Source: Pelagomonas calceolata (Eukaryota). From it: 64,000 bases of DNA. The DNA is taken from assembly GCA_918797485.1 (NCBI GenBank), contig CAKKNE010000004.1, positions 1,674,001-1,738,000 of the forward strand, given 5' to 3'. Of the stretch, positions 13,791 to 14,075 are shown piece after piece (position 1 is the stretch's first letter; every line of letters begins with the position of its first letter). A model generated the notes under the pieces. That model made no database searches. It saw nothing but the letters and a program-made list of their open reading frames with translations, and was not told the DNA's origin. Made by a program: the position numbers and the translations under genes.

Positions 13791-14075
13791 CTAGTTCAGA
13801 ACAAGAAAGAAGAGCTGGTATGTGCTAGTACATGCAGCATCACCCAAATTATACATGACGATGGCCGCACTTCCACTGCTGGCTGTTACGCTAGAAACAC
13901 TGACATAGCCGGTCAAGCACCTAGATTTAATCGTAACCCAGATGATACTTGAAGTAACAATATGCGTATTTGAGAGCGTGATCATTTCAGTGCTACCAGC
14001 ACCAAGTGTGCTTGACTCACTTGTCAAGACACCCCCCATGGTGTTCACAGTAGCGGCAGCACTGGAGACAACCGT
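13791..14075 (-). other. C-terminal ~95-aa all-beta domain of the giant protein, resembling phage structural/tail-fibre C-terminal domains
   Basis: AATVNTMGGVLTSESSTLGAGSTEMITLSNTHIVTSSIIWVTI...YVSVSSVTASSGSAAIVMYNLGDAACTSTYQLFFLVLN. The resemblance is recognised from memory, not from a search. Confidence 0.55.

What the first reader, a model, noticed from the sequence alone, without database searches (positions are those of the whole stretch)
13791..14075. C-terminal tip domain resembles phage structural-protein domains
Seen: TVNTMGGVLT....LGAGSTEMITLSNTHIVTSSIIWVTI....GYVSVSSVTASSGSAAIVMYNLG.....TYQLFFLVLN, ending flush on a beta strand with no transmembrane or GPI signal. Recalled, not searched: many tailed-phage proteins end in a pattern like VTLNxxxGxIT....LAAGxxxxFTLTNSxIxxxxVVxVS....GSFxIxxxN.....xxINFxVI. 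Inference: the fibre tip is of viral or bacterial origin and may nucleate trimerisation or bind a receptor.
Basis: inference. Interest (0 to 1): 0.75.

Follow-up and report, generated by a model that had tools for sequence, protein, structure and literature searches.

The report
Phage-type tip on giant eukaryotic fibre
A marine single-celled eukaryote has an expressed gene, likely for one enormous repetitive protein of over 16,700 residues, whose last 94 residues are related to a domain that ends many phage proteins; the domain is predicted to form a three-part cap, so the cell has probably borrowed a phage- or bacterium-type fibre tip to build a long, likely sticky, surface thread.

Summary
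The 94 residues end an expressed nuclear gene whose 91-residue Gly/Ser repeat runs about 50 kb to the window edge (at least 16,700 codons; the frameshifts checked look like assembly errors). The tip scores 48.7 bits against a profile of 117 viral-contig domains (best of 2,000 shuffles 13.8). Its model (pLDDT 94) matches phage proteins at TM up to 0.89, and giant-virus proteins too. In phages the domain is C-terminal and often encoded just behind the major capsid gene. Three copies are predicted to bind (0.87, best control 0.00). The nearest solved folds are trimeric H-type lectins and tail-fibre tips, at middling Z (7.5). Marine eukaryote-like relatives form a subfamily with a cysteine pair found in none of the 117 viral tips; they carry it on several different shafts, under purifying selection where tested. 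Best reading: an old acquisition of a phage/bacterial trimeric fibre tip that caps and registers a giant secreted fibre and probably binds a surface ligand. Donor, direction, ligand, secretion and location are not shown; the 5' end lies outside the window. No description was found in ten literature searches.

The parts
13791..14075 (-). C-terminal tip domain, 94 aa plus stop; seven-strand beta sandwich; predicted homotrimer; Cys53 and Cys82 a likely disulfide
14076..14310 (-). neck (about 78 aa, Ser/Thr-rich, beta-like) between repeats and tip; limits approximate; shared with eukaryote-like relatives
14311..16187 (-). diverged, mostly single-copy 91-aa Gly/Ser repeats (15-residue strand period); GC3 about 0.41
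16188..45820 (-). homogenised array of a four-unit (about 1,107 bp) super-repeat, 79% GC, many one-base frameshifts in this assembly
45821..64000 (-). same 91-aa repeat in multi-kb duplicated blocks; frame still open at the window edge, so the gene's 5' end is outside the window
12628..13790 (-). about 1.16-kb 3' untranslated region; polyA tails join near 12628; no ATG frame over 68 aa on this strand

Best explanation
The 94 residues are a homologue of a widespread C-terminal phage domain, predicted to form a three-fold beta-sandwich cap, and they likely act as the registering and probably adhesive tip of a giant, likely secreted, three-chain fibre that this eukaryotic lineage probably built long ago from a phage- or bacterium-derived part. 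Shown: homology, C-terminal position, expression, a 50-kb run of one repeat, purifying selection in a related gene. Predicted: fold and trimer. Inferred mechanism: the three tips fold first and set the register; the 15-residue strand-plus-Gly-loop repeats then wind into an intertwined beta-prism, about 0.5 micrometre for the part in the window if each repeat adds one 4.8-A layer (about 0.18 micrometre if each chain is its own three-sided solenoid); a eukaryote-side disulfide clamps two loops at the far end, where related folds bind sugars or peptides between subunits. Rough odds per step: homology 0.97, trimer 0.8, prokaryote/virus-to-eukaryote origin 0.75, one secreted giant fibre 0.7, ligand binding 0.5.
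For: Homology: 94 hits at E<=1e-3, one of them a spurious repeat match; Atlas 0.96, viral clusters. Position: 118 of 124 domains end within 4 residues of the C-terminus. Phage role: 26 of 39 loci tested have a major head protein of 8 different PHROG families within three genes upstream (loci picked by me from 82, mostly for a capsid-sized upstream frame, so biased upward); others end long proteins, one with a T7 tail-fibre N-domain. Fold: pLDDT 94.2; viral models E 1.8e-9, TM 0.89, rmsd 1.7; best solved matches discoidin I Z 7.5 (rmsd 2.4, 82 aligned), Helix agglutinin 7.3, R1 pyocin fibre tip 6.7. Trimer: score 0.87 against best control 0.00, runs agree in at least 97% of contacts, pLDDT at least 86; the mark was reached by 21 of 30 solved pairs and 0 of 23 single chains. 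Disulfide: both Cys in 46 of 124, neither in 76, one only in 2 (rows are related). Old and kept: dN/dS about 0.03-0.16 in a related gene from four contigs, tip GC3 0.48 like its neighbours' 0.47-0.51. Export: 7 of 12 relatives examined have an N-terminal 19-residue hydropathy of 1.7 or more, two more about 1.55. One gene: repeat profile covers 93% of 14250-64000, largest gap 178 bp; short reads or contigs differ from the window by small indels at 8 places in 16.6-17.1 kb and 2 near 60.2 kb.
Against: The tree has 96 columns and is largely unresolved; one clade of eukaryote-like rows is not rejected (p 0.37) but not shown, and most rows have no taxon label. The cysteine-pair type was in 0 of 117 viral tips and was found neither in GTDB genomes nor in viral contigs, so no donor is identified. 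Giant viruses also carry the fold (7 of 39 hits). Z under 8 may mean only a common arrangement; no Pfam H-type lectin hit for 69 members. The trimer pass may come from memory of solved look-alikes: among eukaryotic proteins only 1 of 7 without an older solved relative passed; two copies were not tried. No signal peptide can be seen, since the 5' end is outside the window. 94 frame switches and 11 stops lie inside repeat segments, and only two stretches were checked with reads. RNA at 57-64 kb is thin, patchy and partly antisense. The shaft's structure was not modelled.
Confidence: 0.6

Rival explanations
1. The tip is only a trimerisation and folding cap (foldon-like); it binds no outside ligand and the fibre's role is mechanical (spacer, hair, wall thread).
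For: Conserved columns are mostly Gly, Asn, Thr, Ser and core hydrophobics, with no conserved Trp, His, Asp or Arg. The pilus protein CofB has an H-type lectin fold yet showed no GalNAc binding (PMC6048534, passages). The domain is nearly always the last one.
Against: It also occurs almost alone behind a likely signal peptide (P0024, P0051) and as 108-130-aa phage proteins with hardly any shaft to register, which fits a function of its own.
Confidence: 0.3
2. The domain reached eukaryotes from cellular bacteria with surface fibres, or through giant viruses, or more than once; or it is an old domain shared by all, so 'phage-derived' is too narrow.
For: Four proteins that look prokaryotic to me (three with N-terminal hydrophobic segments) carry the same cysteine pair; a tree that holds them and two more with the eukaryote-like rows is 17.9 log units better than the free tree. 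Faunusvirus, Marseillevirus and Sylvanvirus proteins match the fold. Eukaryote-like rows use at least four different shafts.
Against: Those proteins have no verified taxon and were not found in GTDB. Viral members are numerous and diverse, while eukaryote-like ones fall in one subfamily. No giant-virus sequence could be fetched to test.
Confidence: 0.35
3. The region is a decaying viral insert or a mis-assembled array, not a working host gene.
For: Many frameshifts in the window; antisense reads in the repeats.
Against: Stranded polyA RNA with a long 3' UTR; eukaryotic neighbours (bromodomain, kinase, Atg4-type C54 peptidase); no viral gene seen in the neighbours tested; a related gene in several metagenome contigs with intact frames of 900-1,400 aa, eukaryotic neighbours and low dN/dS; the repeat motif has 0 matches in viral contigs; DNA depth over the array is 5-33 times single copy, as the assembly implies.
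Confidence: 0.05

Closest known systems
PHROG 18251 and the unnamed C-terminal domain of uncultured tailed-phage proteins
   Same: Full-length sequence match, same predicted fold, same C-terminal position.
   Different: Function unknown in the library. Phage members are mostly 108-277 aa and lack the cysteine pair; here the domain ends a nuclear gene of at least 16,700 codons.
H-type lectin fold (discoidin I/II C-domain, Helix agglutinin, SLL-2; CofB pilus tip)
   Same: Best solved structural matches, Z 6.9-7.6, rmsd 2.4-2.8 over about 80 residues; homotrimers with sites between subunits (PMC6048534, passages).
   Different: 6-13% identity, no Pfam match, Z below 8; ligand unknown.
Tips of phage tailspikes and pyocin fibres (R1 pyocin, LKA1 gp49, K1 lyase C-domain PF24146)
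   Same: C-terminal beta sandwiches of fibres, Z 5.4-6.7; 6 of 69 family members hit PF24146 at E<=0.01.
   Different: The window's tip does not hit PF24146; no depolymerase domain; shaft is a 91-aa Gly/Ser repeat.
Bdellovibrio mosaic adhesive trimer (MAT) fibres
   Same: Cell-encoded phage-like trimeric beta-prism fibres with interchangeable adhesive tips, one with a disulfide (PMC10769870, abstract and passages).
   Different: Bacterial, about 1,000 aa in the members seen; no sequence link shown; here a eukaryote and over ten times longer.
MyRF (phage S74 chaperone domain in a eukaryotic protein)
   Same: Precedent for a phage fibre trimer domain in a eukaryote (mention in PMC10769870, passage; the rest recalled).
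   Different: Different domain, self-cleaving, in a transcription factor (recalled).
RcGTA head spike fibre
   Same: A capsid-borne fibre proposed to bind capsular polysaccharide (PMC10218006, abstract): a model for the phage genes found behind capsid genes.
   Different: No homology tested or shown.

Membership tests
Phage C-terminal tip domain (PHROG 18251 family) | Significant full-length sequence match | tested here: met
   E 7.5e-5, query 5-93 on profile 192-279 of 284; 51 of 69 aligned relatives hit it; 48.7 bits on a viral-only profile
Phage C-terminal tip domain (PHROG 18251 family) | Same fold as viral members | tested here: met
   TM 0.80-0.89 for the top 12 viral models; both sides are predictions
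Phage C-terminal tip domain (PHROG 18251 family) | Last domain of the chain | tested here: met
Phage C-terminal tip domain (PHROG 18251 family) | Cys-free distal loops with the N-G-T motif typical of the majority subfamily | tested here: not met
   window tip has the cysteine pair instead; 0 of 117 viral tips have it: a separate subfamily
H-type lectin | Small beta-sandwich fold | tested here: inconclusive
   top matches but Z 7.3-7.6; Foldseek no match at E<=1e-3
H-type lectin | Homotrimer | tested here: met
   prediction only: 0.87 against best control 0.00
H-type lectin | Pfam profile match | tested here: not met
   no such hit for the tip or for 69 relatives
H-type lectin | GalNAc binding between subunits | not testable with these tools
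   needs a binding assay
K1-lyase C-terminal domain (PF24146) | Profile match | tested here: inconclusive
   tip itself no hit; 6 of 69 relatives, best E 2.8e-6; Atlas 0.89 with 43% of members; 7w1c Z 5.4: probably a distant relative
Bdellovibrio MAT fibres | Signal peptide and conserved 130-aa N-terminal beta domain | not testable with these tools
   5' end lies outside the window and no genome is held
Bdellovibrio MAT fibres | Intertwined trimeric beta-prism shaft | not tested
Stramenopile mastigoneme proteins (EGF-like) | EGF-like domains | tested here: inconclusive
   none in the two long frames scanned, N-terminus unseen; relative P0048 has EGF domains ahead of similar repeats and the tip

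The most novel reading that the evidence does not exclude
Probability: 0.35. Interest if true: 0.85.

Novelty: new variant of a known kind. Interest (0 to 1): 0.68.

Why it matters
It would be a case of a virion surface part put to work as a host structure in plankton, on one of the longest protein chains known (size ranking from recall). The gene is present in marine metatranscriptome contigs, so the fibre could bear on adhesion, grazing, aggregation or virus contact. The 94-residue tip is small and predicted to fold well, which makes it a direct handle: an antibody would locate the fibre, and a glycan screen would also give a first function for a common, unnamed phage domain.

Tried and rejected
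Single-sequence fold of neck plus tip failed (pLDDT 33.8) and was not used. Pfam and NCBIfam gave nothing for tip or shaft. tblastn of tip and shaft against 50,697 phage records: no match; a phage-like relative found 2. The PDB sequence hit to PBCV-1 P22 (E 1e-25) is a sum of 14 weak partial matches to a repeat, best single stretch E 1.1, and was rejected; so were TRAP hits. Scans for the cysteine-pair type in GTDB genomes and viral contigs found none; these need exact short words, so absence is weak. Shaft in viral contigs: none. Idea that shaft and neck came with the tip from one marine phage family (42 contigs): 25 of 28 score above the best of 560 local shuffles, but reversed sequences reach 16.7 bits and only 13 of 28 exceed that, and that family's tip is not shown closest; kept as a lead only. 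Atlas hits of the shaft to viral clusters (0.97-0.98) have low recognition (970) and are weak. My first guess that 11.5-12.7 kb is rDNA was wrong (no Rfam hit). The careful tree did not finish; quick trees were used. Earlier scan notes: nothing relevant. Literature: ten searches showed no description of this gene or domain; two pelagophyte genome preprints searched by term mention no giant, glycine, fiber, lectin or adhesin gene of this kind; their supplements were not seen and could list it.

Full report
Observation. They close the frame 13791-16952. There is no transmembrane or GPI-type tail (19-residue hydropathy at most 1.25). Only one copy of the domain is in the window.

The gene. Upstream lies a Gly/Ser/Ala/Thr-rich repeat with periods of 15 and 91 residues (autocorrelation 0.38 and 0.48). 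A profile of the 91-residue unit covers 93% of 14250-64000 with no gap over 178 bp, about 182 units and at least 16,700 codons, and the frame is still open at the window edge. The core is a four-unit array at 79% GC. The window shows 94 frame switches and 11 stops inside repeat segments. In the two stretches checked, short reads or contigs differ from the window by small indels at 8 places in 16.6-17.1 kb and 2 near 60.2 kb, which points to assembly error; the rest was not checked. PolyA RNA covers the 3' part on the minus strand, unspliced, with a 1.16-kb UTR and tails near 12628. At 57-64 kb RNA is thin, sense-biased at the far end (19.7 against 3.8 and 20.1 against 5.8) but partly antisense and with empty bins. 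Neighbours are eukaryotic: bromodomain, kinase, C54 peptidase, with a GT-AG intron. The stretch is held by runs of one cultured organism and by marine metatranscriptome contigs. The lineage was not determined; a stramenopile alga is my guess from recall.

Homology. The tip hits PHROG 18251 (unknown function) at its C-terminus, E 7.5e-5. A full HMMER scan gave 94 proteins at E<=1e-3. Of 124 domains collected (23 near-identical cluster members left out), 118 end within four residues of the C-terminus. An alignment of nine phage-like members found 248 confirmed matches in viral contigs, of which 80 were kept. A profile built only from 117 viral-contig tips scores the window tip at 48.7 bits; reversed 0.2, best of 2,000 shuffles 13.8; best identity 39%, median 31%. 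These viral rows were reached by searches seeded from the tip, so they are independent sequences but not a blind sample. Profile against profile: 98.2%, E 3e-14. The Atlas gave 0.96 with mostly viral clusters.

What the domain does in phages. 85 of 86 tip-bearing frames in loci L001-L082 are 108-277 aa. I tested upstream frames in 39 of these 82 loci, picked mostly for capsid-like size; 26 of 39 have a major head protein, of eight PHROG families, within three genes. This suggests head spikes or decorations (inference; a head spike fibre that binds capsule is described for RcGTA, PMC10218006, abstract). Others are long: one has a T7 tail-fibre N-domain, and a 480-aa family in 42 viral contigs lies in a structural module.

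Fold and assembly. With 69 aligned rows the model has pLDDT 94.2, seven strands, no helix. It matches 39 viral models at E<=1e-3: 26 labelled Caudovirales, 7 giant viruses, 1 uncultured virus, 5 unnamed; best TM 0.89. Among solved structures Foldseek finds nothing at E<=1e-3; VIA-align ranks discoidin (Z 7.5-7.6), Helix agglutinin (7.3), SLL-2 (6.9), R1 pyocin fibre tip (6.7) and LKA1 tailspike (6.5-6.7) first, none at 8. H-type lectins are homotrimers with sites between subunits, and the pilus-tip CofB uses that groove for a peptide, not GalNAc (PMC6048534, passages). Three copies of the tip score 0.87 against a best control of 0.00; runs agree in at least 97% of contacts, pLDDT at least 86; the mark was reached by 21 of 30 solved pairs and 0 of 23 single chains, but by only 1 of 7 eukaryotic pairs without an older relative, so memory may help.

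A eukaryote-side subfamily. Cys53 and Cys82 occur together in 46 of 124 domains, neither in 76, one alone in 2; none of 117 viral tips has the pair. From strand order both lie in loops at the end away from the shaft (inference). A relative at 48% identity ends the same 91-residue repeat in metagenome contigs beside G-beta and RagA genes and is under purifying selection, dN/dS about 0.03-0.16 in six pairs of four contigs. Other members put the tip behind EGF domains, behind a WSC domain, behind a likely membrane anchor with other repeats, or directly behind a likely signal peptide. Four rows come from a source labelled merc, which I recall as a marine eukaryote catalogue; most others are called eukaryote-like from shared neck or appearance only. 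Four prokaryote-looking proteins also have the pair; their taxon is unverified.

Origin. The cysteine-pair label is strongly clustered on the tree (3 changes against 38 for shuffles). On 58 selected rows and 96 columns, one clade of 30 eukaryote-like rows is not rejected (p 0.37), and one clade of these plus six prokaryote-looking rows fits better than the free search (p 0.73). That allows one acquisition but does not show it or root it. The wider spread among viruses favours transfer into eukaryotes; tip GC3 equal to its neighbours and a multi-species family make it old. A marine phage family has a few similar 15-residue repeats and a similar neck before the tip, but a reversed control weakens this.

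Mechanism and comparison. Most likely the tip trimerises, sets the register for three giant chains, and presents inter-subunit grooves at the end of a fibre 0.2-0.55 micrometre long or more; secretion, shaft geometry and ligand are inferred. It works like Bdellovibrio MAT fibres and phage fibre tips (PMC10769870, abstract and passages) but is not shown to belong to MAT or to H-type lectins. It is a member of the unnamed phage tip family, in a separate subfamily. Tubular flagellar hairs of stramenopiles end in terminal filaments and are 0.3-1.5 micrometre long, and the proteins named there are EGF-like shaft proteins (10.64898/2026.09.11.750887, passages); a role there is a speculation. Ten literature searches showed no description (listed under Tried and rejected); other papers were seen only as search listings.

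Verdict. Observation confirmed, interpretation supported with donor and ligand open. New variant of a known kind; interest 0.68.

Noticed in passing
window 16188-64000: Hierarchical coding repeat: 15-aa strand, 91-aa unit, 1,107-bp four-unit block, and multi-kb blocks further up; GC3 0.89 in the homogenised core against 0.41-0.48 in the single-copy 3' end, which suggests GC-biased conversion or concerted evolution. The related gene in L083 and L089 shows the same GC-rich upstream part.
   Followed up: partly
window 11800-12700: Multi-copy element: DNA contig depth up to about 11 times single copy per bin (higher at single places), many loose read ends, no Rfam hit, no clear terminal inverted repeat. 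The giant gene's polyA site falls at its edge.
   Followed up: partly
window 11000-11840 (+): PolyA transcript on the plus strand (depth 110-160) with no recognised coding frame, converging on the giant gene.
   Followed up: no
window 9058-10590 (+): Atg4-type C54 peptidase gene with a 46-nt GT-AG intron spliced in a minority of reads at 10341-10388, after the stop codon.
   Followed up: no
window 16100-17200 and 57000-64000: Antisense polyA reads over the repeats, in places as many as sense reads; absent over the single-copy 3' part.
   Followed up: no
protein P0048 (957 aa): Apparently intronless protein joining EGF-like domains, short Gly-rich repeats, neck and the same tip: a miniature of the giant fibre with a mastigoneme-like N-terminus (likeness recalled).
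   Followed up: partly
proteins P0032, P0035, P0053, P0059: Second architecture: likely membrane anchor in two, then GGTIDG-type repeats that I recall from phage fibres, then the cysteine-pair tip; source organisms unknown.
   Followed up: no
L015, L071, L072, L080: Phage contigs with two adjacent genes that each end in the tip domain.
   Followed up: no
L113:5884-7365, L117:10001-11482, L121:10001-11380: Members of the 480-aa marine phage family that keep the shaft but have a different C-terminus: tip swapping.
   Followed up: no
BFVD hits: The fold also occurs in Faunusvirus, Marseillevirus-like and Sylvanvirus proteins; one is annotated dUTPase-like, which may be a misannotation.
   Followed up: no
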